This document shows positions 4,846-34,373 of a DNA stretch of 64,000 nucleotides, piece after piece (position 1 is the first letter of the stretch; each line of letters begins with the position of its first letter). The DNA lies in the NCBI GenBank assembly GCA_016192825.1, contig JACPTK010000053.1:2173-66172 (forward strand), given 5' to 3'. The notes below the pieces were generated by a model. It did not search any database. It saw nothing but the letters and a program-made list of their open reading frames with translations, and was not told where the DNA came from. This stretch comes from Betaproteobacteria bacterium (GTDB lineage: Bacteria > Pseudomonadota > Gammaproteobacteria > Burkholderiales > SG8-41). A program made the position numbers and the translations under genes.

Positions 4846-4853
4846 AATTCAAC

Positions 4854-18590: not shown

Positions 18591-18595
18591 CTAAC
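18591..18595. repeat. Target-site duplication CTAAC (left copy)
   Basis: CTAAC directly abuts the TG terminus at 18596. An identical pentamer abuts the CA terminus at 32303-32307. Confidence 0.85.
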
Positions 18596-18773
18596 TGAAG
18601 GGGAGCACCTGGTTTGCAAACTGCGGGAAGTGGTCGGGCTATTCGGGAAGATTCCGGATAGAGGGATGGGAATCAAGGGGTTGCGGCAACGGGTGGCGGG
18701 CGAAAACAGCGGATCAGCATGATTGCAAATTTCCCCGAAAACGGCCGCCGGGATCAGCTAGTTTGCAAATTCG
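18596..18773 (+). repeat. Left-end transposase-binding-type repeats (three sites)
   Basis: Site 1 is TGAAGGGGAGCACCTGGTTTGCAAAC (18596-). Site 2 is GGATCAGCATGATTGCAAAT (about 18711-18730). Site 3 is GGATCAGCTAGTTTGCAAATTCG (about 18751-18773). Confidence 0.75.
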
Positions 18774-18855
18774 GCGCGCGGCTACAGCTACCAGATAACA
18801 GACTGATACGGCGAAATTAAGGGGCTAATAATGGCCGGGGAAAGCGGCCCTGGGA

Positions 18856-18888
18856 GGTCCGCAATCAATGCCCGATTGCGGACCTTTT
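18856..18888 (+). terminator. Hairpin plus T-run inside the left arm
   Basis: GGTCCGCAATC-aatgccc-GATTGCGGACC-TTTT. A second hairpin, GGACCCCC-ggtgcct-GGGGGTCC, follows at 18891-18913. GGTCCGCAAT recurs at 18909. Confidence 0.45.
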
Positions 18889-19034
18889 GAGGACCCCCGG
18901 TGCCTGGGGGTCCGCAATGCTCAAAACGTACGCAGCTGTAGTGGATGTGCGTACGCAGCAAATAGGTGTAGGTCGAGCCGCCATCCAATATGGCGCGCCT
19001 CGGGTCGGTGATCCCGACGTCCCTGCCTACGCGG

Positions 19035-19280
19035 CTAGTCGATGTAGCGCAGGTAGGCGGCGGCGCGGGTGAGCCCGTCGTGGAGGGTGATCGCCTGGTC
19101 CTTGCCGAGCGCGAAGGCCCGCTCCCCGCCTCTCGGGTCGGCGAGCCTGAGGTAGATCAAGGGCTCACCGGAAAAGGAACTGACAATGACCTCGAAGGTC
19201 GTCTTCGGGGCGTACGGGTCGGGCTTTCCATTCTGGCCGACCGGGGAGAGTATCTCCAGAACATAGGATGTCGTCGCCAT
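19035..19280 (-). CDS. Small hypothetical protein (left-arm accessory ORF)
   Basis: ORF 19035..19352 trimmed to ATG 19280 (MATTSYVLEIL...), with GGAGAT 5 nt upstream. Confidence 0.5.
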   Translation of the reverse strand: MATTSYVLEILSPVGQNGKPDPYAPKTTFEVIVSSFSGEPLIYLRLADPRGGERAFALGKDQAITLHDGLTRAAAYLRYID

Positions 19281-19447
19281 GCTGATCTCCTCGCCGGGAC
19301 GCCAGACAGCCGGTTGAGCGGCCATTCTATTCCCAAATAGCGGAAGCCCCACACGGCGCGGAAATTAGCCCGGCCGGTCGTTGGTGATAGCAGATCGGAG
19401 TAAGAAGGCGGAGGCGGCAGCGCCGCCCCGCCTGGTGCGGCACAGAC

Positions 19448-19636
19448 TTACTCTCCGCCCTCCAGCTGCGCGAGGCGACCGCAGAGCGATTGCAGCTCGC
19501 GGCGCACGTCGGTGATGAGGGGCGGGATGCGCGACTTGTGCTGCTGCGGGTCGCCGATGCTGAGCGCCAGGCGCTCGATGCGCCGCAGCTTCGCATCGAC
19601 GCCGACCACGACGTTGATGATCAGGTCGCGGTTCAT
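19448..19636 (-). CDS. Small hypothetical protein (left-arm accessory ORF)
   Basis: 62 aa. Its ATG overlaps the stop of the upstream ORF (ATGA). Confidence 0.45.
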   Translation of the reverse strand: MNRDLIINVVVGVDAKLRRIERLALSIGDPQQHKSRIPPLITDVRRELQSLCGRLAQLEGGE

Positions 19637-19914
19637 GCGGCCGCCTCGCGGTCCCTCCCCAGCATGCGGCCGTGTGCGTCCAGCAGCGTCTCGCGAGCCG
19701 CCTCGATCTCATCATGCATCATGCCGAATACCACCTGGAAAGACTCGGCTGGCAGTTCATCAAGTTGCCACGGCTTCTCGTGCGCAGTGACATTCCCAGC
19801 GAGAGCGCTCATGAGCTTACACAGATGACCGACCTGATACAGGCGGTAATCGGCGGACTCGATCTGCGTGAAGGTGGCGTTGCCGAGAACGGGCGTGGGG
19901 GTGTTGCTGACCAT
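19633..19914 (-). CDS. Small hypothetical protein (left-arm accessory ORF)
   Basis: ORF 19633..20031 trimmed to ATG 19914 (MVSNTPTPVLG...), preceded by GGAGG. Confidence 0.5.
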   Translation of the reverse strand: MVSNTPTPVLGNATFTQIESADYRLYQVGHLCKLMSALAGNVTAHEKPWQLDELPAESFQVVFGMMHDEIEAARETLLDAHGRMLGRDREAAA

Positions 19915-20141
19915 GAGGGCCTCCAAGAGTTTAGAGAGGCCACCACCAATGCGAGGTGGCCGGGCGCACTCTCGGCCTCTTGGAAGCCGCGTCGAGCCTT
20001 CCCCTTGCGGGTCTTTTATAGCTCGTCTCAACCCCGGCCAGTAAGGGACGAAAAAAAGCCGCTGCTGACGGGGCGGACAACCGCCAAGAGTTTCGAGAGG
20101 AGTTCAGAATACAGCGGACGGCGGGCGGGGTCAAACTACCG

Positions 20142-20327
20142 CTAGGGCATCGAGCGCTTCAGCGCATCGCACTCGCCCCTGAGGAGCTTGGTTTGGCATT
20201 CGCTGCAGAGGTCGAGCGGATCGGTGGCGGCGCGTTCTTTTCGCTCTTCGTATTCGTCTGTCGGCCAGGCTTGGCAGTTCTGGCAGAAGTGCCATTGGTA
20301 GGTGTTGATCCGCCTCCTGTAAATCAC
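20142..20327 (-). CDS. Small zinc-ribbon protein (CxxC...CxxC)
   Basis: 61 aa with FCQNCQ and CSECQ pairs. It lies immediately downstream of the repressor gene and runs the same way. Confidence 0.5.
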   Translation of the reverse strand: MIYRRRINTYQWHFCQNCQAWPTDEYEERKERAATDPLDLCSECQTKLLRGECDALKRSMP

Positions 20328-20345
20328 CCCGCCCTCACGCAGCGA

Positions 20346-20972
20346 TCACGGCAATGCGGCCTTGACGGTCATCGCGACGATCTTCTTGTCGGCGTGCGCG
20401 GGTCCTTTGAATACATCATAGAGCGAGAGAATCAATTTAGCCTTCTTAACCGGAGGCAGCGACTTGCTCAGCGCGCGAAGTGTGTCATTGACCGCGGAGA
20501 AAATTTCCTCGAGGAGGTTGCCATTCTCTAATAGAGCGTCGATCAAATCCTCAACGTGTTCGTACTCAACAATCGTTCCTCGCGGCATCGACGACGCGAC
20601 CCGGTTAGTTCGGTAATTCAAAACCTCGTCTTCCACGACCAAATCTATCAGGCCATACAGCGCCTCCGCATTTATTCCAAATCGCTTGGCGATTGGATTC
20701 AAGACGCGATGAGTACCTAGCCCGAAAAGATTTCGAGGCGTGGAAGCTTCCGCGAACAGGACAAATCCGGCGTCGCCGCCGGCCTCTGCAAATGCTCTTA
20801 GATATTCCCCGTCAGGGCGGCGCTTTCCCGTCTCATAGTTGACCTGCGTCCCCCTGGTAATTCCCAGCTTCCGAGCAAGGGTCGCCTGTGTGAGCCCGAG
20901 CCTTTTCCTCTCAGTCTGAATGCGCGCCCCCCGCTGTTTGTCAACATTCGATGACATGGTATACAATCGCAT
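20346..20972 (-). CDS. Phage repressor, XRE-family HTH (Mu c-like position)
   Basis: 208 aa. The HTH is RLGLTQATLARKLGITRGTQVNYETGKR. It is divergent from ner/A/B across a 45-bp spacer. Start is either 20972 or 20957. Confidence 0.75.
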   Translation of the reverse strand: MRLYTMSSNVDKQRGARIQTERKRLGLTQATLARKLGITRGTQVNYETGKRRPDGEYLRAFAEAGGDAGFVLFAEASTPRNLFGLGTHRVLNPIAKRFGINAEALYGLIDLVVEDEVLNYRTNRVASSMPRGTIVEYEHVEDLIDALLENGNLLEEIFSAVNDTLRALSKSLPPVKKAKLILSLYDVFKGPAHADKKIVAMTVKAALP

Positions 20973-21017
20973 ACACTACGCTTTTGAAATTGAGGAATCG
21001 TAACAGGAGGTGATCGG

Positions 21018-21227
21018 ATGGCAAAGAAAGTGGGCCCCAGGAGCGCGGAGGATGTGCGCCGCGAATTCGAGCGGAAGGGAACGAGCATCGCGGAATGGGC
21101 GCGCGAGCACGGCGTATCCAGCCAGCTCGTTAGCGGTGTCCTCAGCGGGCGCATTCGTGGGCGGATCGGGCGCAGCCACCGCATTGCGGTTTTGCTCGGC
21201 ATGAAAGACGGGGAAATCGCTAGCTGA
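21018..21227 (+). CDS. ner: Ner-like DNA-binding protein
   Basis: 69 aa with AGGAGG upstream. The HTH is GTSIAEWAREHGVSSQLVSGVL. It sits between the repressor and the transposase, as in Mu. Confidence 0.65.
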   Translation: MAKKVGPRSAEDVRREFERKGTSIAEWAREHGVSSQLVSGVLSGRIRGRIGRSHRIAVLLGMKDGEIAS

Positions 21228-21228
21228 C

Positions 21229-23280
21229 ATGACGACCATCCAAAACAAGAAGCGCGAAACAGCGCTCGTTCGCAAGCTGGGGGACTCAGCGCAGCCTGGC
21301 GCCCGCTGGATTCCAATCGCCGTTTTCTCGCAACTCGCCGGCATCACAAAGCGCGTCGCTCGAAAGATCGCACGACGAACCACCTGGCGCGGCGCCCAGC
21401 TGCAAGTTCGCAAGGTACCCGGCCGGGGCGGCGCGAGCGGCATGCTGCACGAAGTCCTCATCTCATCGCTGCCGCCTGCGTTGCAGGTCAAATGGCACAA
21501 GCTGCAGCAGCCAGCCAGTCTGCCGGCCGGCGTGGAGGAGCAGCTCGCGGAACTCAGAGAAAAATACTCCCCGGCCGAGCCCCGTCCCTGGACACAGGAG
21601 GAGCGCGAGGCGCGGCACGCGGCGCATTCACGGCTGCCGACATCCGTTCAGCTGAGGGGAAAGCGCCGGTTCCAGGCGGTGATCCTGTTTGACTCGCTCA
21701 GCGCGATCGGCTCGCCAGCCGCCGAGCGCTACGCAGTAGCGGCGAAAGAGGCGGGCGTTTCGCCGGACAGCGTGCGCCGCTGGGTGGAATTGTGCCGCGG
21801 CCTCGATCGAGGCGACTGGATAGTGGCGCTCGCGCCAAGGCACCGGGACCGGGAGCTGACAGCGCAAGCACCGTTTGATCAGGAGGCGCTCGAATATATT
21901 TGGACCGAGTATTTCCGCCTCACAAAACCGAACTTAAAGGCCGTTTGTCGGCGCGCGGTTCGATTCGGCAAAGAGCGCGGATGGGCGATCCCCTCTTACA
22001 CCACCGTGAAGCGCCGCGTTAATGCCGAGCCGCACCCCTTCCGCGTCTTGATGCGCGAAGGACAAGAGGCTTTCGAGAAGCTCTACCCCACGCAGCAGCG
22101 CGACTACAGCACGCTGCGCTTGCACGAAATTTGGTGCTGTGACGGAAGGCGCGCCGACGTTTTCTGCCGCTGGGAGGATGGGACGGTCAGCCGGCCTATC
22201 GTGATCACCTGGCAAGAGGTGCGCAGCAGGGTGATCCTCGCGTATCTAGTCGCTCGCACGGAGAGCGCGGACTCAATCCGGCTCGCCTTCAAAGACGCCG
22301 CGGAAAAGTATCGCGTGATCCCCGCGCACGCGTTGCTCGATAATTCGAGGGCGTTCGGCTCGAAGCTCTTGACGGGCGGCGCGCCCAATCGCTTCCGCTT
22401 CAAGGTGCGCGAAGAGGAACTCCCCGGAATTCTCACCCAGATGGGAATCGGGGTGATCTGGACGCTGCCCTTTGCCGGGCGCAGCAAGCCGATCGAGAGC
22501 TTTCACCGGCAATACGCTGAAGCCGAGAAGCGCCTCGCCGGGGCTTATTGCGGCAACCGTCCCGACGCTCGCCCCGAAGATTTTGATGAGGCGAAGGCGG
22601 TGCCGATCGAACAATACCGCAAGCTCATCGAGGAAACGCTCGCCGAATACCACGCCCGAGCGCATCGCGGCGACTCGATGGAGGGGCGCAGCCCGCGCGA
22701 AGTGTACGAGGCGCTGCTACCGCAATGCGCGCCCCGCCAGCCGTCCCGCGATCAGCTCAGGCTTTGCCTTCTTGCGGCGGACAGCGTCAAACTCGATCCG
22801 GACACCGGCGCGGTGCGGCTCCTGGGGAACCGCTACTGGTGCGAGAAGCTCGCCCAGCAGCCCCGTGATCGCGCATACGTCGTGCGGTTCAATCCGCAGG
22901 ATCTGACCGAAGAGGTGGCGATCTACGACGGCGAGCGCTTCGTTTGCGAGGCGCCGATCATCGCGCGCACGGGCTTCAAGGATTCGCAGTCCGCCAGGAA
23001 CGAGCAGCGCGCGAGGCGGCAATTCTTGAAGAGCCAGAAGCGGCAGGTTGTCGCCCGCGGTGACATGAGCAAGGCGCGCGCATGGATCACGCCGCCGGAC
23101 GTTTCTGACGCCCTGCAGGCTGAAGTCGAGAAAGCGGTGCTGCCCGCGCCGAAAGTCGTTACACCGCTGCGTCCGGTTCGAGACTATCGCCCCGAAAAAC
23201 CGGAGGAGCCGATCATCTCGAAAGACGATTTCCTGCAGATCATCCTCGATCACGACCAGCGCCGCGCCGGCGAAGGATAA
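21229..23280 (+). CDS. Mu-type DDE transposase (A protein)
   Basis: 683 aa. The candidate DDE triad is WCCDGRRADV / LLDNSRAFG / KPIESFHRQ. The size and the position upstream of an AAA+ partner fit an A protein. Confidence 0.85.
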   Translation: MTTIQNKKRETALVRKLGDSAQPGARWIPIAVFSQLAGITKRVARKIARRTTWRGAQLQVRKVPGRGGASGMLHEVLISSLPPALQVKWHKLQQPASLPAGVEEQLAELREKYSPAEPRPWTQEEREARHAAHSRLPTSVQLRGKRRFQAVILFDSLSAIGSPAAERYAVAAKEAGVSPDSVRRWVELCRGLDRGDWIVALAPRHRDRELTAQAPFDQEALEYIWTEYFRLTKPNLKAVCRRAVRFGKERGWAIPSYTTVKRRVNAEPHPFRVLMREGQEAFEKLYPTQQRDYSTLRLHEIWCCDGRRADVFCRWEDGTVSRPIVITWQEVRSRVILAYLVARTESADSIRLAFKDAAEKYRVIPAHALLDNSRAFGSKLLTGGAPNRFRFKVREEELPGILTQMGIGVIWTLPFAGRSKPIESFHRQYAEAEKRLAGAYCGNRPDARPEDFDEAKAVPIEQYRKLIEETLAEYHARAHRGDSMEGRSPREVYEALLPQCAPRQPSRDQLRLCLLAADSVKLDPDTGAVRLLGNRYWCEKLAQQPRDRAYVVRFNPQDLTEEVAIYDGERFVCEAPIIARTGFKDSQSARNEQRARRQFLKSQKRQVVARGDMSKARAWITPPDVSDALQAEVEKAVLPAPKVVTPLRPVRDYRPEKPEEPIISKDDFLQIILDHDQRRAGEG

Positions 23281-23285
23281 CAACA

Positions 23286-24095
23286 ATGACCGCCATCAAA
23301 CGCTTGCACGAGGTTTCCATCGAGGACGCCGCGCCGGCTCCAATCAAGACCGCCGCCGCCGATGGGCCAGCGCCCGCGTGGGTCGAGACCCCGACCTCCA
23401 AGAAAATCTATCAGGCGATCTTGCATGCACAGACCACGCCCACGCTCGTGCTGATCTACGGTGCGCCGGGGGTTTCAAAGACGACGACGGCGGCCCGTTA
23501 CGTGGAAGAGCGCGACCCGCGCTGGCATGAGCGCGGCGCCTATCACATCAATCTGCTGGGCGTGAAGTCCTCGGCCTCGATGCTCCAGACGATTCACGCG
23601 GTGATCCGCACGCCCAGGTATATCGACGCCTACCGTAACGTGACGCTGATGCGCTCGCTCGCCAATTGCCTCGAGCCGGGATCGTTGCTGATTCTCGATG
23701 AGGCGCAATCGCTGCGCCCGGACGCGCTCGACGCCGTGCGGTTTTTTCTCGACGAGCGGGACGTCGGCCTCGTTCTGATGGGCAACGAGATCGTGTACGG
23801 CGCCATTGCCAGCAAGAGCGCGCGGGCACATTTCGCGCAGCTGAGCAGCCGCATCGGCCTCAAGCTCCACCTTCCGCATCCCACCGAAGCCGATGCAGAC
23901 GCGGTTCTCAAGGCTTGGGGCGTGACTGATGACGCCGGGCGCGAATACGGCCGGAAGATCGCGCTCGGGCCGGGCGGCCTGCGGCAACTTGCCCAGCTGC
24001 TAAGGCACGCACGGACTGCGGCTGCCGCGACGAGGCGGTCATTGGATCACCGGCTGATGCACGCCGCGGCCAGCGCCTTGGGATTAATCGAGTGA
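23286..24095 (+). CDS. Transposition ATPase (MuB/TniB-like AAA+)
   Basis: 269 aa. Walker A is GAPGVSKTT and Walker B is LLILDEAQ. Confidence 0.8.
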
Positions 24096-24096
24096 A

Positions 24097-24648
24097 ATGC
24101 GCGTGAGGCATACCTGGAGATCTGCTAAGGCCCGACCCGTGGCCAGGGCGATGGAAACGCTAATCGCTGTTTCGCCTGAGACCGTACGCCAGATCAGACA
24201 GCAATACGGTGAAGATGTCGCGCTGATTAGCGCCGCAATGGAATGCCTCGCGGCGCGCTTCCGAGAAAAAGGCGCAGCGCTGTCCTCGCCGAGCGCCGTG
24301 CGAGATTACCTTCGGTTGTTACTTACGCCGCTGCAGCATGAAGTGTTCATGGGGATATTTGTTGACGCGCAGAACCACGTGCTGGCGGTGGAGGAGTTAT
24401 TCCGCGGCACCCTTACCAAGACCAGCGTCTACCCGCGCGAGGTGGTGAAGCGCGCGCTCCAACACAACGCCGCCGCGCTGATCTTTGCCCACAACCACCC
24501 CTCGGGCACCGCGGAGCCGAGCGGGTCCGACGTGGTCCTGACCCGGACCCTTCAGCAAGCGCTTGCGCTGGTGGACGTCAAGGTGCTTGATCACTTCGTC
24601 ATCGGCGCACGGGCGGCGACATCATTAGTTGAGCGCGGGTTATTTTGA
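24097..24648 (+). CDS. RadC-like JAB-domain protein
   Basis: [16 protein letters not shown] is the JAMM/RadC signature. The start could be ATG 24151. Confidence 0.75.
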
Positions 24649-24667
24649 AACGGCAAGTCTCGAAGGC

Positions 24668-25117
24668 ATGGGTAATCTCGGCGCAATAATCTCCAAGGAG
24701 CGCAAGGCGGTGATCCACGTCGCGAAGGCGCAACTCGCCATGACGGACGAGGATTACCGCGCGCTCCTGGCGCGCGTGGCAGGCGTCAGCTCGTCGGCCG
24801 ATCTCGATGACCCCGGCTTCGAGGCAGTGATGGCTGAGTTCGAGCGGCTGGGATTCCGGTCGGCGAAACACCGCGCGCCGGCTGGGCAACGCGAGGGCAT
24901 GGCAACACCCGCCCAGGTCGGCAGGATCCGGGCGCTGTGGAAGGCATACACGGGTGACTATGACGAGCCAGGCTTGGAACGCTGGCTCGAAGTTCACCTC
25001 CACGCATCGAGCCTGCGATTTCTCGATGCGTGGCGCGCCGGCAAAGCGGTTGCGATTCTTGAGGGCATGGTTGCCAAGAAGCGCGCGAAGGCCGGGACAG
25101 GAGAATCGCTGTCATGA
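24668..25117 (+). CDS. gemA: Mu gp16/GemA-like (DUF1018-type) regulatory protein
   Basis: ORF 24629..25117 trimmed to ATG 24668. KAVIHVAKAQLAMTDEDYRALL...ATPAQVGRIRALW resembles the GemA family, and the position is Mu-like. Confidence 0.55.
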   Translation: MGNLGAIISKERKAVIHVAKAQLAMTDEDYRALLARVAGVSSSADLDDPGFEAVMAEFERLGFRSAKHRAPAGQREGMATPAQVGRIRALWKAYTGDYDEPGLERWLEVHLHASSLRFLDAWRAGKAVAILEGMVAKKRAKAGTGESLS

Positions 25118-25404
25118 AACGCCGAGCGGGTCCGGTCGAGATCACCGCCGCCAAGTGGCGCCGGCTTCATTTGCTAGGCAACCCGCCGAGAATCGCGGGC
25201 GACCCGGAGGTGCGGGAATTCCTGAAGAAGGCGCTGCGCACCATGTCGTTCAAACGGGCGGCCGAGGCATGCGGGCAGCGATTCGGCGCCAGGGCGCCGG
25301 GAAAGTCCGCGATTCATCGCTACTGGAAAAAGTACTGGCAAGAACCCCGCCAGAATCGCGCTGGGGTGGCCTGCGCCGGCCGGGTCGCTACCACCCTACG
25401 CTAA
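25114..25404 (+). CDS. Hypothetical early-region protein
   Basis: 96 aa with an ATGA overlap onto the gemA-like gene. Confidence 0.45.
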   Translation: MKRRAGPVEITAAKWRRLHLLGNPPRIAGDPEVREFLKKALRTMSFKRAAEACGQRFGARAPGKSAIHRYWKKYWQEPRQNRAGVACAGRVATTLR

Positions 25405-25587
25405 AAACCAACCCCCCTCTAAAGACCCTCTCAAAAACGCTCCTAGTGGCCTTCTTGAGGCGATTTTCGTGAAAAGGACCCCTCAAAAAGCCGGAGGCCC
25501 GACGCTATTAGCGGCCCACCATGCCGTTGGAGCCGGGCTCGACGGCCGGGGTTGGGATGTCCAGGGCACCGGGACCCCTGTTAAGCG

Positions 25588-25611
25588 CCTGTTAACTGCG
25601 TTTTTAACAGG
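25588..25611. promoter_or_regulatory. Perfect dyad CCTGTTAA-N8-TTAACAGG upstream of the mor-like gene
   Basis: Read directly. An extra CCTGTTAAG copy lies at 25577-25585. The dyad is 40 bp upstream of ATG 25651. Confidence 0.35.
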
Positions 25612-25650
25612 CATCCCAGAGGCCGGAACACCCCACATAGGCTGCTCGCA

Positions 25651-25995
25651 ATGACTCTCCCCCCCGTACAGCAGGGCGCCGGCCGGTCCGGACGCTACCC
25701 CGAAATCCTGGCGAGCCTGGCGGAAACCGTGACCGAGATACTGATCCGCAAAGGCATCGAACCCGAGATCGCGCGCTCGACCGGCGAGGAAACTGTCGAG
25801 CACGTGCGCAAGCGCTTCGGCGGCGAGCTGGTCTACATCCCGATGGGCCTCGGCTACGATCTCGATCAGCGCAACCGAGAAATCCGCCGCCGGCTCGCCG
25901 CGGGCGAGCCGCGCGATGAAGTCCGCCGCGAGTTCAATCTCTCCGACACGACGATGCGGCGAATCGAAAACGGCGACGCGCCGCGTCGCCGCTGA
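25651..25995 (+). CDS. mor: Mor-family transcription activator
   Basis: 114 aa. It has FGGELVYIPMG plus a C-terminal HTH (EFNLSDTTMRRI), which is the Mor pattern. Confidence 0.7.
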   Translation: MTLPPVQQGAGRSGRYPEILASLAETVTEILIRKGIEPEIARSTGEETVEHVRKRFGGELVYIPMGLGYDLDQRNREIRRRLAAGEPRDEVRREFNLSDTTMRRIENGDAPRRR

Positions 25996-26210
25996 TCTAT
26001 AACGTACGTTGAAAGACTTGGCGGCCTCTCACCGCTAGCATCGTCCCCGGTGTTGCGTACAGGAAGTGAGGGGCCAGGTGGTGGGACGGGTCGGCGCTTT
26101 TCCGGACGGAGGGCCGCACCCGAGTCCCGTCAAGCCGCTGATTTCGTCCCACCTCTTGGCCCTTTCCTTCATGAACGCCGACAAGCGAAGACTTCGAGCG
26201 AGGTAAGAAC

Positions 26211-26942
26211 ATGAGCGCCGCCGGAACACTCAAGCGATTGGCCGCAGCTGTCTTTGGAGGGGCAGGAGACTCACCGATTCCGCAGGGGCTGGCGAGCCTG
26301 CCGAGCCTGATCACCGCGCAGAAAACCATCGCCCAGATCCGCAAGGTGATGGATGAACGCAGCCGCCTCTTCGCGCTGAGAGATCAGGAGCTGGAAAAAC
26401 TCGACTCGCTCGGCCGCCGCGCGAGCGAACTCGACGCCGCGCGGGTTGAAGCGCTCACCGAGCATCGCGTCAGCGCCGACTCCGCGGCGGGCGAGAAAGC
26501 TGGCGGGCTCCTCAAGCAGGTCGCCGAGATTCGGCAGGAAATGAACGACGCGGATGCCGTCGCGGCGCGTCTGGACAAGCGCGCGAAGGAGCTCGACATC
26601 GAGATCGAGCCGCTCAAGCGGATGTATCAGGGCGATCTTGGGCTCTTCCTGTGCGAAGTCTACGGGCGCCTGTCGGAGCACTACGAGAAACACGCCAGGG
26701 AAGCGGGCGAGGCGGTCGTCACAATCGCCGCGCTGCACCGGGTGATGATGCGGTACCAGACGGGGAACAGCAACGGCTGGGACGGCAGCCTGCAGCTGCC
26801 CAGCATCGTCCCCGGCCAGGGCAACACGATCCCGCCGCTCTTCGCGGCTGGTTCCTCGAATTTCAGTCGGGCCGCGAGCGAGCGCATGGAGGAGATCATC
26901 GAACAGATGCGGGCCGCCGGGTTCATCTGGAAATTCGATTGA
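26211..26942 (+). CDS. Coiled-coil protein, possible head scaffold
   Basis: 243 aa with a long charged helical stretch. It lies immediately upstream of the capsid-like gene. The functional call rests on position only. Confidence 0.4.
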   Translation: MSAAGTLKRLAAAVFGGAGDSPIPQGLASLPSLITAQKTIAQIRKVMDERSRLFALRDQELEKLDSLGRRASELDAARVEALTEHRVSADSAAGEKAGGLLKQVAEIRQEMNDADAVAARLDKRAKELDIEIEPLKRMYQGDLGLFLCEVYGRLSEHYEKHAREAGEAVVTIAALHRVMMRYQTGNSNGWDGSLQLPSIVPGQGNTIPPLFAAGSSNFSRAASERMEEIIEQMRAAGFIWKFD

Positions 26943-26974
26943 CCCGCGCCGCGTTTACCCCGGAGATAGTGCAG

Positions 26975-28015
26975 ATGCCAAACGTGCCCTGCAAAGCAGC
27001 TGTGTTGCTAGATCGATTCTTTTCGCGCGAGGGGGGAGTACGATCATTCCGCGAGTGCTACATCGAGATTACCGGCGACAAGCGGCTCACCGGCCGTATC
27101 GAGAACTGCGACCTCGTGAGGATGCGCGAGTCGCTCGACACTGACCTCTGGTCCAACGTGTTCGCGAACTCGGTCAACCGGCGCATGGTGGCGGAGTACC
27201 GGCGCGGCGGCGTGTACTCCGTATGGCGGAAGCTGGTGAAGATCGCCGGCAACGTGAATGATTTCCGCACCCAGGAGCGGGTGCGCTATGGCGGCTATGG
27301 CGCATTGCCCACGGTGAACCAGGGCGCGGCCTATCTCGCGCTTCCCTCGCCGCCCGGCGAGAAGGCGTCGTACGCCGTCAGCAAGCGCGGCGGTATCGAA
27401 TCTCTCACGCTGGAGATGGTCAAGAACGACGACGTGCAGGCGATTCGCGCGATCCCGACGCGCCTGTCGGAAGCGGCGCAGCGCACGCTCAACGATTTCG
27501 TGATGGACTTCCTCCGGACTAACCCAGTGATCTATGACGGCGTGGCCCTCTTTGACGCCGCGCACGGCAACCTCGGCAACGCAGCTCTCTCGGCGGTCGG
27601 GATGGAGGGCGCGCGCACCGCAATGCGCAAGCAGACGGAACTCGGCAGCGGTCAGCGGCTGCGCATTACCCCGCGTTTCTTGTGGGTGCCGTTGGACCAG
27701 GAGGAAACCGGCTTCAATATCTTTCGGCGAGGCACCAACAACGACAAAACCTTCGTTCAAAGCATGGACGTTGAGGTCGTTCCGGTGCTGGACTGGACCG
27801 ATACCAACGACTGGTGCGCCTCGGCCGATCCGGAGAGCTGTCCCACGATCGAGCTTGCTTTCCTCGACGGGCAAGAAGAACCGGAACTCTTCATGCAGGA
27901 TCATCCGAGCGCCGGCTCGCTGTTCTCGCACGATCAGGTGACCATGAAGATCCGCCACATCTACGGCGGCGCCGTCGTAGACTATCGCGGGCTCTATAAG
28001 TCGGTCGTCGTGTAG
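26975..28015 (+). CDS. Major capsid-like protein (HK97-fold type)
   Basis: ORF 26651..28015 trimmed to ATG 26975, with GGAGAT 7 nt upstream. It is 346 aa. ALFDAAHGNL...RFLWVPLDQEE...DWCASADP...IELAFLDGQEEPELF follows the pattern I associate with Mu gpT-like and other major head proteins. Confidence 0.55.
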   Translation: MPNVPCKAAVLLDRFFSREGGVRSFRECYIEITGDKRLTGRIENCDLVRMRESLDTDLWSNVFANSVNRRMVAEYRRGGVYSVWRKLVKIAGNVNDFRTQERVRYGGYGALPTVNQGAAYLALPSPPGEKASYAVSKRGGIESLTLEMVKNDDVQAIRAIPTRLSEAAQRTLNDFVMDFLRTNPVIYDGVALFDAAHGNLGNAALSAVGMEGARTAMRKQTELGSGQRLRITPRFLWVPLDQEETGFNIFRRGTNNDKTFVQSMDVEVVPVLDWTDTNDWCASADPESCPTIELAFLDGQEEPELFMQDHPSAGSLFSHDQVTMKIRHIYGGAVVDYRGLYKSVVV

Positions 28016-28037
28016 GCGGCGGCTCCTACAGGCCCTC

Positions 28038-31000
28038 GTGAACGAAATCGTCCTCGGAATCCGCCTCACCGCCGACGGCAAGGCCGTCGTCACCGAGGTG
28101 CGCGCAGCGACCGAGGAAGTCAAGAAGCTCGGCCAGGCGGCGGGCCGGTCGAACGCCCAGGCCGCGGCCGAGGGCGAGAAGTTCACCGGGTCGCTCAAGC
28201 GCCAGGCCGACACGCTCGGCATGACGAAGTCGCAGACGCTCGCCTACGAAGCCTCGCAGCATCAGCTGACCACCGCGCAGAAGGAGTCGGTCGCGCAGTC
28301 GATCCGCGCGATCGGCGCGCACGAACAACATCAGATGGTGCTCGGCCGCGTCAAGGTCGCGGCGGCTGCCGCCGGCGCGGCGGTCACGGCGATGGCGATC
28401 GGTGGCTTGAAGGCGATGATCACCGAGACCGCGCGCGCCGAGCAGGCGAATCTCAAGCTCGAGGCGGTGCTGCGCGCGACCGGCAACGCGGCGGGATTTA
28501 CCAAGGCGCAGCTCGACGCAGAGGCCGAGTCCCTCAAACGCAGCACCGGCTTCGACGACGACCAGGTGCGCGCCAGCATGGCGGTGATGCTGACCTTCAA
28601 GCAGATCACCGGCGACACCTTCAGTGAATCCATGAGGATGGCCGCGGACCTGTCCCGGCTCCTCGGCCAGGATCTGCAAAGCTCGGTACTTCAGCTCGGC
28701 AAGGCGCTCGAGAATCCGGAGACAGGCTTGACCATGCTGAGCCGCTCCGGCGTCTCGTTCAACGATACTCAAAAGGAAACGATCAAACGCCTGGTTGACG
28801 TTGGCCGCCAGGCCGAGGCCCTGACGCTCATTCTCCAGACCATGAAACACCAAGGCATCGATCGAGTAGCCGAGAGCATGAACGTGGGCCTTACGGCGGC
28901 GATGCGCAATGCGGGGCTCGCATGGGACGACCTGCTCAAGGAGATCGGGAAAACCCCGCAAGTAAGGGGTCCCGTGGAGGCCACCTTTAACCACATCGAG
29001 AAGGTGCTGCTCAAGACCAAGGATCTCGTCGAACAGCCGTGGACCGAGCGGCTCAAGATCATCATGAGCGGCGGCCTTTACAGCGGCGCGCCGCCGGCGC
29101 GGGGGGAGTACGTCGGCGGCACCGAGGGGCGGCTCGCGCGCGAAGGCGCGCAGCGCCAGGCCGAAGAGCAGGCGCGCGCGCAGGCGCGCGCGGGGCTGGC
29201 TTCGTTCATGACGCCGTTCCAGGGCGAGGAGCAGAAGATGCTCATCGCGATGCGGGATTTTCTGGCGCGGTCCGAAGGTGCCGGGCTCTCGGATGACGAA
29301 GTGCAGCGTGGCATCCGGACGATCCGCTCGAAATTCATGGGCAAGGAAGAAGCGTCCGCGGCAATGCGCGCGGCGGAGGAGCTGCGCAATCTCTACGATC
29401 AGCTCGACAACACCGGCACGACGGTCAACGCGGCATTCCGCAAGCAGCTCGGGATGCTGCACGGCGAATACGAGAAAGGCGGCATGACGCTGGAGGTCTA
29501 TCAGGCCCGCGTCACGGAGCTCATCAACCGGACCGGTTTTGCTACGAAGCTCAAGGAGCAAGAGAAGGTCGCGCTCGACGCCTATCTCAAGTCCGAAGAA
29601 TTCCACGCGGATGTCATGAGGGAGATCAACGAGCTGACCGCGCAGCAGGGCAAGCTCCGCGCGGAGGCGCTTCGCGGCAGCCAGGGGGCGGCGGATCTCG
29701 CGCGCGACGAGCAGCAAATCGCCGAGCGCGAGCTATCCCTCATGGGTGCGAGCGTGCGCGAGCGTACCGCGGTAATCGAACAGTTAAAGGCGGAGCAGCA
29801 AGTGCGGCGCCAAATCGAGGACCTCAAGAATAAAGGGGTCTACCTCGATGAGACCGATCAGGAACACATGATGCAAAAAGCCCGGGAGGCCGCCGCGGCG
29901 AGGGCACGCACCGGGGAAATCCGCGAGACGCAGCAGGCGTGGCAGCGCACCGCGGACAACATCGAGCGCTCGCTCACCGATGCGCTCATGCGCGGCTTCG
30001 AGCGCGGCGAGAACATCGCTCAGAATTTCTGGCACAGCGTCAGAAACATATTTTTGACGCAGGCGTTGCAGATCCCGGTGCGCTTCGTCGCCGGGACGAT
30101 GGCGAGCGCGATCGGCTCGCTCGGCATCCCCGGCCTGGCGAACGCCGGCGGCGGCGCTTCCAGTCTGCTCGGCATGGGGAACCTGGTCTCCGGCGCTGGC
30201 GCGTTATCGAAGCTCGGGTTCGGGTTTGGCCAGACGATGGCTGACTTCGGCAACTTCTTCGGCTCGATCGGCTCGCTCACCGAGTCCGGCGCCACCTTCG
30301 GCCTGATGGACGCGATTGGCGGCTTCGCGGCGGCGAACCCGGTCACCGCCGCGCTGATGGTGGCGGGGCTCGCGCTCGGCGGGTCGAGCCTGCTCGGCAA
30401 CAAGCGGCCTTCGGCGCAGCTCACCGGCCGCCAGCTCTCGGGAAACGTCGCCGGCTACGGCGGCCTCAACGCCGCGCCCGACTTGACCTTCAACACCGGT
30501 TTCACGCCGGCCTCGGCCGGCTGGGAATACATGGGCGGGCTGTTCCAGACCGAGATCCGCGCGCTCTACGACCAGGTCGCGCAGCTCGGGCAGACGCTCG
30601 GGCGCGACACCAGCGGGCTGCGCGGTTTCACCGCGAGCGTCAGCACGCCTAAATTCCTGGACTACTCGGAGATCCTCGGCACGACGCTCCAGCAGATCAG
30701 CGACCAGCTCGCGACACAGTTGCTGCCCGACCTGCAGGACCTGGCCAAGGCCGGCGAGAGCGCCACGCAAACGCTGGTGCGGCTCGCGAACGAGGCCCAG
30801 CAGCAGCGGCTGGGCGAGATTTTCGGGCGCATGGGCGCAGCGGTGCAGCTCCAGGATGCGACGCGCGACCTGTGGCTCTCCGATCTGTCGCCGCTCACGG
30901 CGCGCCAGCGCCTCGATGCCTCGAACGCGCGCTACAGCGAGCTGCTCGGCCTGGCGCGCGGCGGCGATATCGGCGCCTATCAGGAGCTGCAGGGGTTCGT

Positions 31001-31385
31001 GCGCGGCAACCTGGAGGAGAACCGCGGCTACTACGCCGGCGCGAGCCCGGAGTACGTCGCGACGTTCCGGCAGCGCATGGAGGAGATTCAGGACCTCACT
31101 AGCAACACGATCACCGAGCAGTCCATCCAATTCGCGGAGCTGGGGCTTACAATGCGGAGCATCGATACAAGGCTCGCCAATATGGATCAGCGCATCGAGC
31201 AAGCGCTCGAAAGGGCGGTAGGGGCCCGCCTGGATGCGCTGCGCGCGACGGCGGAAGCGGGGAACGACCAGATCACCGACGCGATCGTGAGCACCCCGAT
31301 CGCCGTGGCCAACAACGCCGCGGGCGCCAGCGGGGCGCTGTTCCTCGACGACAGCACGATCGATCCGACCTACATGACCGACTAA
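28038..31385 (+). CDS. Tail tape-measure protein
   Basis: 1115 aa with a GTG start. It has coiled-coil N and C parts and the core LGKALENPETGLTMLSRSGVSFNDTQKETIKRLV, which is typical of tape-measure proteins. A Gly-rich hydrophobic segment follows (about 30090-30420). Confidence 0.75.
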   Translation: MNEIVLGIRLTADGKAVVTEVRAATEEVKKLGQAAGRSNAQAAAEGEKFTGSLKRQADTLGMTKSQTLAYEASQHQLTTAQKESVAQSIRAIGAHEQHQMVLGRVKVAAAAAGAAVTAMAIGGLKAMITETARAEQANLKLEAVLRATGNAAGFTKAQLDAEAESLKRSTGFDDDQVRASMAVMLTFKQITGDTFSESMRMAADLSRLLGQDLQSSVLQLGKALENPETGLTMLSRSGVSFNDTQKETIKRLVDVGRQAEALTLILQTMKHQGIDRVAESMNVGLTAAMRNAGLAWDDLLKEIGKTPQVRGPVEATFNHIEKVLLKTKDLVEQPWTERLKIIMSGGLYSGAPPARGEYVGGTEGRLAREGAQRQAEEQARAQARAGLASFMTPFQGEEQKMLIAMRDFLARSEGAGLSDDEVQRGIRTIRSKFMGKEEASAAMRAAEELRNLYDQLDNTGTTVNAAFRKQLGMLHGEYEKGGMTLEVYQARVTELINRTGFATKLKEQEKVALDAYLKSEEFHADVMREINELTAQQGKLRAEALRGSQGAADLARDEQQIAERELSLMGASVRERTAVIEQLKAEQQVRRQIEDLKNKGVYLDETDQEHMMQKAREAAAARARTGEIRETQQAWQRTADNIERSLTDALMRGFERGENIAQNFWHSVRNIFLTQALQIPVRFVAGTMASAIGSLGIPGLANAGGGASSLLGMGNLVSGAGALSKLGFGFGQTMADFGNFFGSIGSLTESGATFGLMDAIGGFAAANPVTAALMVAGLALGGSSLLGNKRPSAQLTGRQLSGNVAGYGGLNAAPDLTFNTGFTPASAGWEYMGGLFQTEIRALYDQVAQLGQTLGRDTSGLRGFTASVSTPKFLDYSEILGTTLQQISDQLATQLLPDLQDLAKAGESATQTLVRLANEAQQQRLGEIFGRMGAAVQLQDATRDLWLSDLSPLTARQRLDASNARYSELLGLARGGDIGAYQELQGFVRGNLEENRGYYAGASPEYVATFRQRMEEIQDLTSNTITEQSIQFAELGLTMRSIDTRLANMDQRIEQALERAVGARLDALRATAEAGNDQITDAIVSTPIAVANNAAGASGALFLDDSTIDPTYMTD

Positions 31386-31406
31386 CAACTAGAGACGCGA
31401 ACTACT

Positions 31407-31730
31407 ATGCAGGACCTCGCAAAGGCAGTTGAACAATGCAAAGTTCTGCTGAGGCAGATTGACGAGCAAGTGAAGGTGCTCGTCGGGCTGAAGGAACTGG
31501 AGGCGCTCTTCTCGCTGAAGGAGCGAGACCCGTCGATCTTGAGCGGGGTTGACGGCATATTGAAGGAGCTGCGGGAGATGAAGCTCCGCGTTAGCGGGGC
31601 TGTGAAAGTTTTCAGCGCGGTACCCGGCGCGATCGAGGACATCAATCAGGCGCTGTTGCTGTTTACTCGCGCGAAGGATTTCGCGGAGACGGTCGCGCAG
31701 CGCCGCAAGCGCGCCGGGGGCCAAGGCTGA
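31407..31730 (+). CDS. Hypothetical protein
   Basis: 107 aa, helical. No motif recognised. Confidence 0.4.
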   Translation: MQDLAKAVEQCKVLLRQIDEQVKVLVGLKELEALFSLKERDPSILSGVDGILKELREMKLRVSGAVKVFSAVPGAIEDINQALLLFTRAKDFAETVAQRRKRAGGQG

Positions 31731-31735
31731 CAGCG

Positions 31736-32086
31736 ATGGCTGGCCCCGCGCTTGAATACACCGGCTTTCTCCCTGAACTGGCGGACAAACTAATCGCATT
31801 TCTTATTGCGGCGGGCTGGTCGCGCGAGCGCGCCGAGGCGCTTGCACGAGCGCTCGTTGACAGCATGAGGCGCAATTGGGGCGGCACTCAGGTCTACATT
31901 CCATCGCAACGACCGATCGACAGATTGCTTCGCGATGCAGAGATCGCGCGCAGATGGAACGGGCGTAACACACTCGAGTTGTGCCGCGAGTTCGGGATCA
32001 GCGACGAGCGGGTGCGGCAGATCTATGACGAAGCGCGACGCAAGGCCAAATCGGTTTCAGCCGGGGCCCAGGCGGCGCGTAAATAA
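31736..32086 (+). CDS. Second Mor/C-family activator paralog
   Basis: 116 aa. WGGTQVYIPS plus ELCREFGISDERVRQIY fit the Mor/C family. It is the last gene before the right end. Confidence 0.65.
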   Translation: MAGPALEYTGFLPELADKLIAFLIAAGWSRERAEALARALVDSMRRNWGGTQVYIPSQRPIDRLLRDAEIARRWNGRNTLELCREFGISDERVRQIYDEARRKAKSVSAGAQAARK

Positions 32087-32252
32087 GCGTTAACGGCCCA
32101 TTAAATTCCGGGCTGTTGCGCCGCAACAAATCCCTTTCTTTCACCCCGATGGCGACACGTCGAGAAGGGCGCGAAAGGCATCAAAGAGGCCGCCCGATTG
32201 CGGCAATGAAAAAACGACGTATCCTCCGAGAATCAATCGTTTAGCCGATTTC

Positions 32253-32302
32253 GAATTTGCAAATTACCTGATCCGGATTTGCAAATTGGGTGATCCCCGT
32301 CA
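32253..32302 (-). repeat. Right-end transposase-binding-type repeats (two sites)
   Basis: The reverse complement reads TGACGGGGATCACCCAATTTGCAAATCC and then GGATCAGGTAATTTGCAAATTCGA. Both match the left-end sites. Confidence 0.8.
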
Positions 32303-32307
32303 CTAAC
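32303..32307. repeat. Target-site duplication CTAAC (right copy)
   Basis: Identical to 18591-18595 and directly abutting the CA terminus. Confidence 0.85.
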
Positions 32308-32310
32308 CTG

Positions 32311-32338
32311 TTGTCTTTGCGGGCTCTTGTCGGTATTA

Positions 32339-32339
<1 letters not shown>
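32311..32339 (+). promoter_or_regulatory. Sigma70-type groESL promoter
   Basis: TTGTCT, a 17-nt spacer, then TATTAT, immediately followed by CIRCE. Confidence 0.55.

Positions 32340-34373
<2,034 letters not shown>

What the first reader, a model, noticed from the sequence alone, without database searches (positions are those of the whole stretch)
25997..32302. Late region reduced to scaffold-like, capsid-like and tape-measure genes while regulation and transposition stay complete
A Mu-like genome normally carries lysis, terminase, portal, protease, head completion, sheath/tube, baseplate and fibre genes in roughly 25 kb of late DNA. Here, after mor (25651-25995), I find only five ORFs:
- a coiled-coil ORF (26211-26942)
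- a capsid-like ORF (26975-28015)
- a 1115-aa tape-measure ORF starting 22 bp later (28038-31385)
- a 107-aa ORF
- a second Mor/C paralog abutting the right end

None of these ORFs looks frameshifted. This pattern fits either a neatly deleted prophage or a satellite-like mini-Mu. A satellite would keep its own transposition and regulatory cascade plus a few structural genes, and borrow the rest from a helper. A transposable-phage satellite of this kind is not something I know to be described.
Basis: inference. Interest (0 to 1): 0.7.

Follow-up and report, generated by a model that had tools for sequence, protein, structure and literature searches.

The report
Mu-like transposable phage satellite family
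A 13.7-kb jumping element keeps phage Mu's full transposition and control genes but only three virus-particle genes, and it belongs to a conserved, recurring family of such mini-Mu elements that most likely borrow the rest of the particle from a full-size phage, a kind of phage parasite I found no description of.

Summary
The element spans 18596-32302 (13,707 bp) with TG...CA ends and a 5-bp target duplication, CTAAC. After mor it carries only five genes: a coiled-coil gene (cc), an HK97-fold capsid gene, a tape-measure gene, a 107-aa ORF and a second Mor/C gene.

It is not a one-off deletion.
- Across 171 related loci, every short capsid gene has a cc homologue directly upstream (17/17). None of 141 normal protease-scaffold-capsid fusion genes does.
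- In a capsid-domain NJ tree, 14 of the 15 distinct short capsid sequences form one pure clade.
- cc and the capsid gene are under purifying selection (dN/dS about 0.2 and 0.15).
- Four other complete Mu-type elements of 10.6-15.6 kb share the layout at different insertion sites. Three have their own 5-bp duplications.
- None encodes a large terminase, portal, protease, tail tube or lysis gene.
- Full-length relatives are 35-47 kb.
- The same cc-capsid pair sits in an 11.7-kb integrase/primase island in a cultured bacterium.

Best reading: a helper-dependent, Mu-type transposable satellite that builds or reshapes capsids with its own capsid protein and scaffold. No helper was identified and packaging is untested. 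Four independent elements lie 32-40 bp upstream of the groESL operator. Literature searches found no Mu-type satellite.

The parts
18591..18595 (.). left copy of the 5-bp target-site duplication, CTAAC
   Evidence: read from the sequence; best-scoring end pair in an automatic search
18596..32302 (+). whole element, 13,707 bp, with TG...CA termini
   Evidence: imperfect terminal inverted repeat TGAAGGGGAGCACC / TGACGGGGATCACC (12 of 14 match); TSD on both sides
18596..18775 (+). left end with subterminal TTTGCAAA-type repeats, candidate MuA binding sites
   Evidence: all 4 exact TTTGCAAA copies in the 64-kb window lie in the two ends (18613, 18762, 32256, 32278); 0.41 expected by chance
19035..20327 (-). 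four small left-arm ORFs (105, 62, 132 and 61 aa), function unknown, cargo position
   Evidence: GC3-supported ORFs; no Pfam or PADLOC hits
20346..20972 (-). repressor (HTH_3, 208 aa)
   Evidence: Pfam 7.6e-10; divergent sigma70-like promoters at 20938-20967 (+) and 21024-20997 (-)
21018..21227 (+). Ner-like small HTH protein
   Evidence: position and weak HTH hits
21229..23280 (+). MuA transposase, 683 aa
   Evidence: Pfam DDE_2 2.1e-34, HTH_Tnp_Mu_2, Mu-transpos_C; the DDE triad aligns with D108 A D268/D335/E391
23286..24095 (+). MuB ATPase, 269 aa
   Evidence: Pfam Phage-MuB_C 7.3e-14 and AAA_22; Walker A GAPGVSKT and Walker B LILDE read in the translation
24097..24648 (+). RadC-like JAB protein
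   Evidence: Pfam RadC 5.8e-42
24629..25117 (+). GemA
   Evidence: Pfam GemA 7.6e-22
25114..25404 (+). 96-aa ORF resembling the N-terminal HTH of Mu Gp27; candidate pac-recognition (small-terminase-like) protein; weak call
   Evidence: PF11985 E 0.012 and phrog_426 'terminase small subunit' E 0.024; 5 of 7 aligned family members (the window ORF included) match PF11985, best 1.3e-50
25651..25995 (+). Mor (middle-gene activator)
   Evidence: Pfam Mor 7.1e-17
26211..26942 (+). cc: 243-aa coiled-coil protein with a conserved C-terminal AAGFIW(R/K)FD motif; proposed capsid scaffold or size determinant
   Evidence: 72 clusters of standalone proteins of about 240 aa; always directly upstream of a short MCP; dN/dS 0.22-0.24; helical hairpin model
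26975..28015 (+). short major capsid protein (HK97 fold) lacking the protease and scaffold domains of its relatives
   Evidence: dN/dS 0.13-0.16
28038..31385 (+). tail tape-measure protein, 1115 aa
   Evidence: Pfam TMP_2 above cutoff; PHROG TMP families; its N-terminal part matches TMPs of full-length relatives
31407..31730 (+). 107-aa helical ORF, unknown function
   Evidence: GC3-supported ORF; no homologue in family members or HMM libraries
31736..32086 (+). second Mor/C-family activator, last gene of the operon
   Evidence: Pfam Mor 1e-18; phrog_532 'late transcriptional activator' 7.1e-22
32250..32302 (+). right end with two TTTGCAAA repeats 22 bp apart
   Evidence: aligns with the right ends of L006 and L012
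32303..32307 (.). right copy of the target-site duplication, CTAAC
32311..32365 (+). host groESL promoter-like site and CIRCE operator (TTAGCACTC-N9-GAGTGCCAG, 32339-32365), left intact just outside the element
   Evidence: groES/groEL ORFs read

Best explanation
The element is a complete member of a conserved lineage of reduced Mu-type transposable elements that behave as phage satellites.

Shown:
- It has intact Mu-type ends and a 5-bp target duplication.
- It has an intact MuA (DDE triad present) and MuB, a repressor/Ner switch, GemA and two Mor/C activators.
- Its only virion genes are a short HK97-fold capsid protein, an obligatorily linked coiled-coil protein (cc) and a tape-measure protein.
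- This layout recurs, under purifying selection, in many diverged elements of 10.6-15.6 kb.

Inferred mechanism:
1. After derepression the element amplifies by MuA/MuB replicative transposition.
2. Mor turns on one operon, cc-MCP-TMP-o107-Mor2. This sits where Mu has its middle operon, so the element's capsid protein and scaffold would be made before a helper's late proteins.
3. The C-like Mor2 at the end of the operon has no late genes of its own to activate. It probably trans-activates the late genes of a full-size Mu-like helper prophage, as P4 delta does for P2.
4. cc replaces the missing in-cis scaffold domain. Together with the 'pre-trimmed' capsid protein it assembles on helper portal into small heads. 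These heads would hold about 12-16 kb, roughly one third of the 35-47 kb genomes of full-length relatives.
5. Helper terminase fills them by Mu-type headful packaging from the element's end. A Gp27-like HTH protein may steer the terminase.
6. The element's own, fast-changing TMP is built into helper tails.
7. Lysis, portal, terminase and the rest of the tail come from the helper.
For: Boundaries and transposition genes.

Virion gene calls.

Nothing else virion-like in the element or in the 64-kb window.

Recurrence:
- cc homologues at 42-59% identity were always found next to a short MCP and Mor.
- Across 171 loci, 17/17 short MCPs have cc upstream, against 0/141 fused MCPs. L004/L092 is an intermediate form.
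- In an NJ tree of 149 MCP domains, 14 of the 15 distinct short MCPs form one pure clade.
- The top ~46 MCP database hits are nearly all 342-398 aa.

Complete elements with different flanks:
- L006: 15,643 bp, TSD GGGCT.
- L176: 12,237 bp, TSD GCCAA.
- L182: 15,356 bp, TSD GCGTG.
- L180: 10,615 bp, 45-bp TIR.
None has an ORF that could be a TerL or a portal.

Selection: dN/dS is 0.22-0.24 for cc and 0.13-0.16 for MCP, at unsaturated dS.

Size contrast: full-length relatives with fused MCP are 35-47 kb contigs, and Mae-JY22 is 41.4 kb.

Same module on a classical satellite backbone: an 11.7-kb island in Plasticicumulans acidivorans DSM 23606 carries integrase, Toprim primase, cc, MCP and a Mor-like gene, bounded by 67-nt direct repeats.

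Recent mobility: one element with an identical MCP occurs in 24 contigs, and two long contigs carry different genes beyond its last shared gene.

Promoter: there is no sigma70-like promoter upstream of cc, which fits an activator-dependent operon.
Against: - No helper was identified. There is none in the 64-kb window. Full-length phages from the same metagenome samples are not close relatives (MCP 54-56%).
- Only one locus was returned for the P. acidivorans genome.
- No packaging, particle or induction data exist.
- cc has no detectable homology to any scaffold or size-determination protein. Foldseek's best hit has E 0.12-0.14. hhalign against the scaffold part of fused MCPs gives probability 0.4%.
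- The role of the TMP in a satellite is unexplained, and two family members lack it (L173 and L180).
- Larger relatives keep many tail genes (L134), so the family grades into bigger elements whose autonomy was not settled.
- The Gp27-like call in the window is below threshold.
Confidence: 0.6

Rival explanations
1. A lineage of non-packaged Mu-type transposons or domesticated prophage remnants. Its capsid, cc and TMP genes are kept because they poison the assembly of incoming related phages (a decoy or dominant-negative defence). The element spreads only by transposition and by whatever vehicle happens to carry it.
For: No helper was found. The structural genes are under purifying selection whatever their use. 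TMP evolves fast and is swapped between Pfam families, as expected in an arms race. Tail-assembly interference is a known defence theme (title seen).
Against: Known satellites also interfere with their helpers, so this reading overlaps with the main one. Element sizes cluster at about one third of the relatives' genomes. The same module sits in an integrase/primase island of classical satellite design. A Gp27/TerS-like gene is retained in several members. No PADLOC hit for cc, o107, RadC or the left-arm ORFs (MCP and TMP were not scanned).
Confidence: 0.25
2. A unique, neatly deleted Mu-like prophage: a decaying remnant specific to this genome.
For: Its size and gene content could in principle arise from two internal deletions. 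A TSD survives internal deletion.
Against: The same gene set and order recur at 40-70% protein identity, with different TSDs and different sites. Short MCPs are monophyletic and always paired with cc, a gene absent from full-length relatives. ORFs are intact and dN/dS is well below 1.
Confidence: 0.02
3. An autonomous minimal virus, or an encapsulin-like compartment system that makes shells from MCP plus cc without any helper.
For: The MCP model also matches encapsulin shells, which share the HK97 fold. cc has a conserved extreme C-terminal motif that could act like a cargo or scaffold targeting peptide.
Against: The MCP is 53% identical to a bona fide phage capsid domain and nests inside a phage MCP tree. 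DNA packaging needs a portal and a terminase, and neither is present. A tape-measure gene makes no sense for an encapsulin.
Confidence: 0.03

Closest known systems
Satellite phage P4 with helper P2 (Sid, Psu, delta)
   Same: A small element at about one third of the helper's genome size. No own portal, terminase or tail. Own regulators, including an activator that could switch on helper late genes. A helical protein proposed to set a small capsid size. The family member in P. acidivorans even has a P4-style integrase plus Toprim primase backbone.
   Different: P4 integrates by a tyrosine recombinase and replicates as a plasmid. The window element uses MuA/MuB transposition with a 5-bp TSD. P4 encodes no capsid protein and no TMP. 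cc shows no significant similarity to Sid (7jw1_E, E 0.51).
SaPIs and other PICIs (CpmA/CpmB, own TerS; SaPIbov5 Ccm, an MCP homologue)
   Same: Satellite-encoded capsid-size redirection, in SaPIbov5 by a satellite copy of an HK97-fold capsid protein (own knowledge). Satellite-encoded small terminase to redirect packaging, compared here with the Gp27-like ORF. Similar size, about 15 kb.
   Different: PICIs excise and replicate from an ori. No transposase. No TMP. The satellite MCP here is paired with a dedicated new partner protein.
Capsid-forming PICIs (cf-PICIs)
   Same: Satellites that make capsids from their own HK97-fold MCP. The cf-PICI EcCI2 capsid 9gyi_A is among the fold matches (abstract listed).
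   Different: cf-PICIs encode the whole head and packaging set and steal only tails. This element has only MCP plus cc, and it additionally carries a tail gene (TMP).
Engineered mini-Mu (Mud) elements with helper Mu
   Same: Mu ends plus A and B (and c), transposing on their own and packaged headful by a helper Mu (own knowledge). The window element is a natural counterpart.
   Different: Laboratory mini-Mu elements carry no structural genes. They are packaged into full-size heads together with about 25 kb of flanking host DNA. The natural family carries MCP, cc and TMP and is proposed to make matching small heads.
Full-length Mu-like siphophages with a fused protease-scaffold-MCP gene (e.g. 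Microcystis phage Mae-JY22, and 141 related prophage or viral loci)
   Same: Mae-JY22 shares the MCP domain at 53% identity plus GemA and Mor homologues. TMP N-terminal similarity to the element's TMP is seen in several of the other full-length loci. These phages are the likely ancestors and the likely type of helper.
   Different: 35-47 kb with a full late region. The MCP is fused to protease and scaffold domains. There is no cc gene.

Membership tests
Mu-like transposable element (transposition module) | MuA-family DDE transposase with an intact catalytic triad | tested here: met
   Pfam DDE_2 2.1e-34, HTH_Tnp_Mu_2, Mu-transpos_C; D/D/E columns invariant with D108 A
Mu-like transposable element (transposition module) | MuB-type AAA+ target-capture protein next to A | tested here: met
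   Phage-MuB_C 7.3e-14 and AAA_22
Mu-like transposable element (transposition module) | TG...CA termini, subterminal repeated sites and a 5-bp target duplication | tested here: met
   the same in L006, L176 and L182
Mu-like transposable element (transposition module) | divergent repressor/Ner switch and Mor/C-type activators | tested here: met
   (function of the switch not tested)
Autonomous Mu-like phage | complete late region (lysis, terminase, portal, protease, head completion, tail) | tested here: not met
   only MCP and TMP are present
Phage satellite (general) | lacks the genes to build a virion but has its own mobility/replication and regulation | tested here: met
Phage satellite (general) | a recurrent, selected architecture rather than decay of individual prophages | tested here: met
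Phage satellite (general) | mobilised and packaged by a specific helper phage | not testable with these tools
   no helper identified; needs induction and virion sequencing
Phage satellite (general) | genome about one third of the helper's, matched to small capsids | tested here: inconclusive
   10.6-15.6 kb against 35-47 kb for full-length relatives, but the true helper and the capsid size are unknown
P4-like satellites | integrase, alpha primase-helicase, Sid, Psu, delta, AlpA | tested here: not met
   none of these is in the window; only the relative L067 has an integrase and a Toprim protein
cf-PICI | own MCP plus portal, protease, head-tail adaptors and packaging genes; no tail genes | tested here: not met
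   MCP only, and a TMP is present
Encapsulin system | HK97-fold shell protein of the encapsulin families with cargo, outside a phage context | tested here: not met
   the MCP nests in a phage MCP clade and lies in a Mu-type element next to a TMP; the fold match alone is non-specific

The most novel reading that the evidence does not exclude
This is a previously undescribed class of phage satellite that multiplies by Mu-type replicative transposition rather than by excision and plasmid-like replication. It carries a 'capsid kit': a protease- and scaffold-free capsid protein plus a new coiled-coil partner that arose once and then spread, even onto integrase/primase islands. It also carries an interchangeable tape-measure gene that customises stolen tails. 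One sublineage homes to a 9-bp window just upstream of the groESL promoter.
Probability: 0.5. Interest if true: 0.85.

Novelty: new variant of a known kind. Interest (0 to 1): 0.78.

Why it matters
The known phage satellites (P4-like, PICI, cf-PICI, PLE, as far as I know and as far as four full-text searches showed) integrate by site-specific recombination (own knowledge). A satellite that uses Mu-type transposition would have several consequences.
- It would add a new replication and mobility mode to satellite biology.
- It would be a natural analogue of laboratory mini-Mu elements.
- Mu-type headful packaging carries flanking host DNA, so it would be a possible new route of host-gene transduction.

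The strict pairing of a truncated capsid protein with a new partner protein is a clean, testable system for how capsid size or assembly is reprogrammed.

A satellite-borne tape-measure gene is unusual and points to an unknown interaction with helper tails or with DNA entry.

The repeated insertion next to the groESL promoter suggests target-site selection by a Mu-family transposition system. I did not search the literature on this point.

The markers (cc family, short Phage_capsid_4 MCP) allow genome-wide detection of the family.

Tried and rejected
- Is cc the scaffold part of a frameshifted fusion gene? Rejected. BLASTP against the Mae-JY22 fusion finds nothing. hhalign against 112 scaffold segments gives probability 0.4%. 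cc is a standalone protein of about 240 aa in 72 clusters.
- The 454-aa ORF 26651-28015 as the real MCP gene. Rejected. The upstream frame is closed in all homologues, and BLAST extension into it is gap-ridden.
- Fold search of cc against PDB and BFVD: only generic coiled coils, best E 0.12-0.14. PDB sequence search: nothing.
- cc-profile scan of the GTDB species genomes: no hit. The MCP-alignment scan did work.
- Helper hunt: none in the window. No close phage in INPHARED for MCP, TMP or MuA. Same-sample full-length phages are not close.
- A diagnostic indel in the MCP domain separating short from fused forms: none.
- PADLOC on the left-arm ORFs, RadC, o107 and cc: nothing. Rfam: nothing.
- L021 (groESL 7 kb downstream of an MCP at a contig edge): no Mu-type end next to groES, so not counted.
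- Literature: four searches found no Mu-type satellite. The Pseudomonas AH14b satellite is integrase/primase-type.
Full report
**1. What is in the window**

The element runs from a TG at 18596 to a CA at 32302, which is 13,707 bp. It has an imperfect terminal inverted repeat, TGAAGGGGAGCACC / TGACGGGGATCACC. The pentamer CTAAC is duplicated on both sides. An unbiased search for TG...CA pairs with a 5-bp duplication ranks this pair first. All four exact copies of TTTGCAAA in the 64 kb lie inside the two ends, against 0.41 expected by chance.

Gene content:
- four small unknown ORFs on the minus strand;
- an HTH repressor (20346-20972, minus strand), divergent from a Ner-like gene, with sigma70-like promoters between them;
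- MuA (Pfam DDE_2, 2.1e-34), with the D/D/E triad aligned to D108 A;
- MuB, RadC, GemA;
- a 96-aa ORF weakly like the N-terminal HTH of Mu Gp27;
- Mor;
- then, tightly packed, cc (26211-26942), MCP (26975-28015), TMP (28038-31385), a 107-aa ORF and a second Mor/C gene (31736-32086).

**2. The three structural calls**

*MCP.* Pfam Phage_capsid_4 scores 2.7e-45. The protein matches positions 520-891 of an 893-position PHROG profile, and the C-terminal parts of 'major head and protease' families. It is 53% identical to residues 421-769 of the 771-aa protease-scaffold-capsid fusion of the Mu-like Microcystis phage Mae-JY22. The AF2 model (pLDDT 87) has an HK97 fold, with 346 PDB matches at E<=0.001. 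So the gene corresponds only to the capsid part of a gene that is normally a fusion.

*TMP.* The Pfam TMP_2 hit is above the gathering score, and PHROG tape-measure families score down to 7.5e-23.

*cc.* The model is a long helical hairpin plus a C-terminal helix. No family, fold or PDB match is significant. It is not related to the scaffold segment of the fused genes.

**3. Nothing else virion-like**

I ran tblastn with 15,262 ORFs taken from about 140 full-length relatives. Against the element they match only the MCP, the N-terminal part of the TMP and fragments of early genes. Nothing else matches in the 64-kb window. Every ORF over 200 aa in the element is accounted for.

**4. The architecture recurs**

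cc has homologues at 42-59% identity. Each one examined sits between a Mor gene and a short Phage_capsid_4 gene.

Scans of GTDB species genomes and IMG/VR with an MCP alignment gave 160 more loci. Over all 171 loci the split is clean:
- 17 of 17 short MCP genes have a cc homologue directly upstream;
- none of 141 long fused genes (median 446 codons upstream of the capsid domain) has one;
- one contig (L004/L092) is intermediate. It has cc plus a 529-aa MCP that keeps the N-terminal protease-like domain but has lost the scaffold segment.

In an NJ tree of 149 distinct capsid domains, 14 of the 15 distinct short MCP sequences form a single pure clade of 14. L134 falls outside it. The protein database adds scale. 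The top ~46 MCP hits are nearly all 342-398 aa. The cc family comprises 72 clusters at 50% identity, and the full-length ones are standalone proteins of about 200-260 aa.

Purifying selection is clear. dN/dS is 0.22-0.24 for cc and 0.13-0.16 for MCP, at dS 0.4-0.9.

**5. Complete relatives**

Four further Mu-type elements have both ends:

| Locus | Size | Ends | Flank |
|---|---|---|---|
| L006 | 15,643 bp | TSD GGGCT | groESL |
| L176 | 12,237 bp | TSD GCCAA | between an S4/PseudoU_synth_2 gene and a Cu-oxidase_4 gene (rluD- and pgeF-like) |
| L182 | 15,356 bp | TSD GCGTG | next to a GATase_6/7 amidotransferase gene (purF-like) and a Colicin_V-family gene |
| L180 | 10,615 bp | 45-bp perfect inverted repeats, no TSD | groESL |

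Their gene lists are repressor, Ner, MuA, MuB, GemA, a few small ORFs, Mor, cc, short MCP, usually a TMP and usually a second Mor. No ORF could be a large terminase or a portal. One element with an identical MCP occurs in 24 contigs, and two long contigs carry different genes beyond its last shared gene. Full-length relatives are 35-47 kb. A one-off deletion is therefore excluded. This is a lineage that moves as a unit of 10-16 kb.

**6. The module also rides a classical satellite backbone**

In Plasticicumulans acidivorans DSM 23606, cc and a short MCP lie in an 11.7-kb island. The island is bounded by 67-nt direct repeats. It carries a tyrosine integrase, an 888-aa Toprim protein and a Mor-like gene. 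That is a P4/PICI-like design. This is independent support that the cc-MCP pair is a satellite tool.

**7. The TMP**

A TMP is present in most members, but at different positions: before cc in L174, after Mor2 in L006, after the MCP in the window. Lengths range from 689 to 1538 aa. The Pfam family differs, TMP_2 in some and TMP_3 in others. L173 and L180 lack it. It diverges far faster than its neighbours. Between L006 and L007 the TMP is 37% identical, against 79% for MCP and 83% for cc.

I infer repeated replacement to match local helpers or to escape something that targets the TMP. Possible roles, all untested:
- escape from helper-encoded injection blocks that act on the TMP;
- a Mu-N-like end-protection role on entry;
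- poisoning of helper tails.

**8. Mechanism proposed**

The steps are listed under 'best explanation'.

Shown: the parts list, the boundaries, the recurrence and the selection.

Inferred: helper dependence, small-capsid formation by cc plus MCP, trans-activation by Mor2, packaging steered by the Gp27-like protein, and the TMP role.

The operon position (Mor, then structural genes, then the C-like gene, with no sigma70 promoter) mirrors Mu's middle operon. This would express the satellite's capsid kit early. The Gp27 link rests on relatives: 5 of 7 aligned members (the window ORF included) match PF11985, with 1.3e-50 in L173. The window ORF itself scores only E 0.012.

**9. Weak points**

No helper was found in the window, in phage collections or in the same samples. 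L134 and L014 keep several tail genes, so the family grades into larger elements whose status is open. All functional steps need experiments.

**10. Comparison and novelty**

The closest systems are:
- P4/P2 (size redirection, trans-activation);
- SaPIs, including SaPIbov5 Ccm (a satellite MCP homologue; own knowledge);
- cf-PICIs (own capsids);
- laboratory mini-Mu with helper Mu.

None combines Mu-type transposition with its own MCP, a dedicated partner protein and a TMP. Four full-text searches found no Mu-type satellite. The AH14b satellite is integrase/primase-type. I rate this a new variant of a known kind (phage satellites), with interest 0.78.

**11. Side finding**

Four independent elements abut the groESL promoter: the window, L006 and L012 by their right ends, and L180 by its left end. 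They lie 36, 38, 32 and 40 bp upstream of the CIRCE operator. Their flanking pentamers differ, and the hosts' groES genes are only 75-83% identical at the DNA level. Five other family members with a known flank are elsewhere. For a Mu-family system this looks like target preference and deserves a test.

Noticed in passing
window 32303-32365; L006 17975-18040; L012 6898-6960; L180 940-1001: Four independent family members are inserted 32-40 bp upstream of the CIRCE operator, just upstream of the -35 of groESL, in both orientations. Their flanking pentamers differ (CTAAC, GGGCT, AGACT?, none). The hosts' groES genes are only 75-83% identical at the DNA level. Five other members with a known flank are elsewhere. 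This suggests a target-site preference, or selection for this site. Transcription from Mor2 (window), or from the repressor gene (L180), points into groESL with no terminator-like site between.
   Followed up: partly
window 25114-25404: The 96-aa ORF between GemA and Mor belongs to a family whose longer members are clear Mu Gp27 (PF11985, 1.3e-50 in L173). The window copy keeps only the N-terminal HTH (E 0.012; phrog 'terminase small subunit' E 0.024). It is a candidate satellite-encoded pac-recognition protein.
   Followed up: partly
L067 5316-17094 (Plasticicumulans acidivorans DSM 23606, NZ_QGTJ01000002): An 11.7-kb island bounded by 67-nt direct repeats carries a tyrosine integrase, cc, a short MCP, an 888-aa Toprim protein, a Mor-like gene and a ProQ gene. 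The cc-MCP module has moved onto a P4/PICI-like backbone in a cultured strain, which makes it an experimental entry point.
   Followed up: partly
L004/L092 10669-12258; proteins P0014, P0017, P0033: Intermediate capsid genes of 526-560 aa keep the N-terminal protease-like domain fused to the capsid domain but lack the scaffold segment. In L004/L092 (= P0014), the one whose context I read, cc lies directly upstream; the contexts of P0017 and P0033 were not checked. This is a possible evolutionary intermediate between fused and short forms.
   Followed up: partly
L134 3340-14993: The one short MCP outside the main clade sits in a larger element. After cc and MCP it carries a tail terminator, a major tail protein, a chaperone and a 992-aa TMP. 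No terminase or portal lies upstream, and the contig end was not reached.
   Followed up: partly
L010 (Logan SRR12113419), contig end: A contig carrying a 100%-identical copy of the window element stops 5 bp before the element's right end. L177 is a 12.4-kb contig that is almost exactly the L176 element. Assembly breaks at element ends may reflect several flanks in the population.
   Followed up: no
L180 11617-11640: Immediately outside the right end of this TSD-less element lies a third copy of the subterminal repeat GTGGCCAAATAATTTCC. It may be a remnant of an adjacent or rearranged copy.
   Followed up: no
window 19035-20327 (-); L006 2760-4151; L182 1175-2521: The left arms, downstream of the repressor, carry variable cargo. 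The window has four unknown small ORFs. L006 and L182 have a DUF7830/DUF6035 protein, with a CoiA-nuclease-like hit in L006. No PADLOC hits.
   Followed up: partly
window 26651-26974: The MCP reading frame stays open 108 codons upstream of the ATG (from GTG 26651) and overlaps the 3' end of cc. Some fused MCPs give a weak, gap-rich BLAST extension into it (an 'ESGR..GG' motif). It is probably a GC-rich artefact, possibly a relic.
   Followed up: partly
window 1-6000: G+C content is clearly lower (0.54-0.59) than in the rest of the window (about 0.65). Not examined.
   Followed up: no
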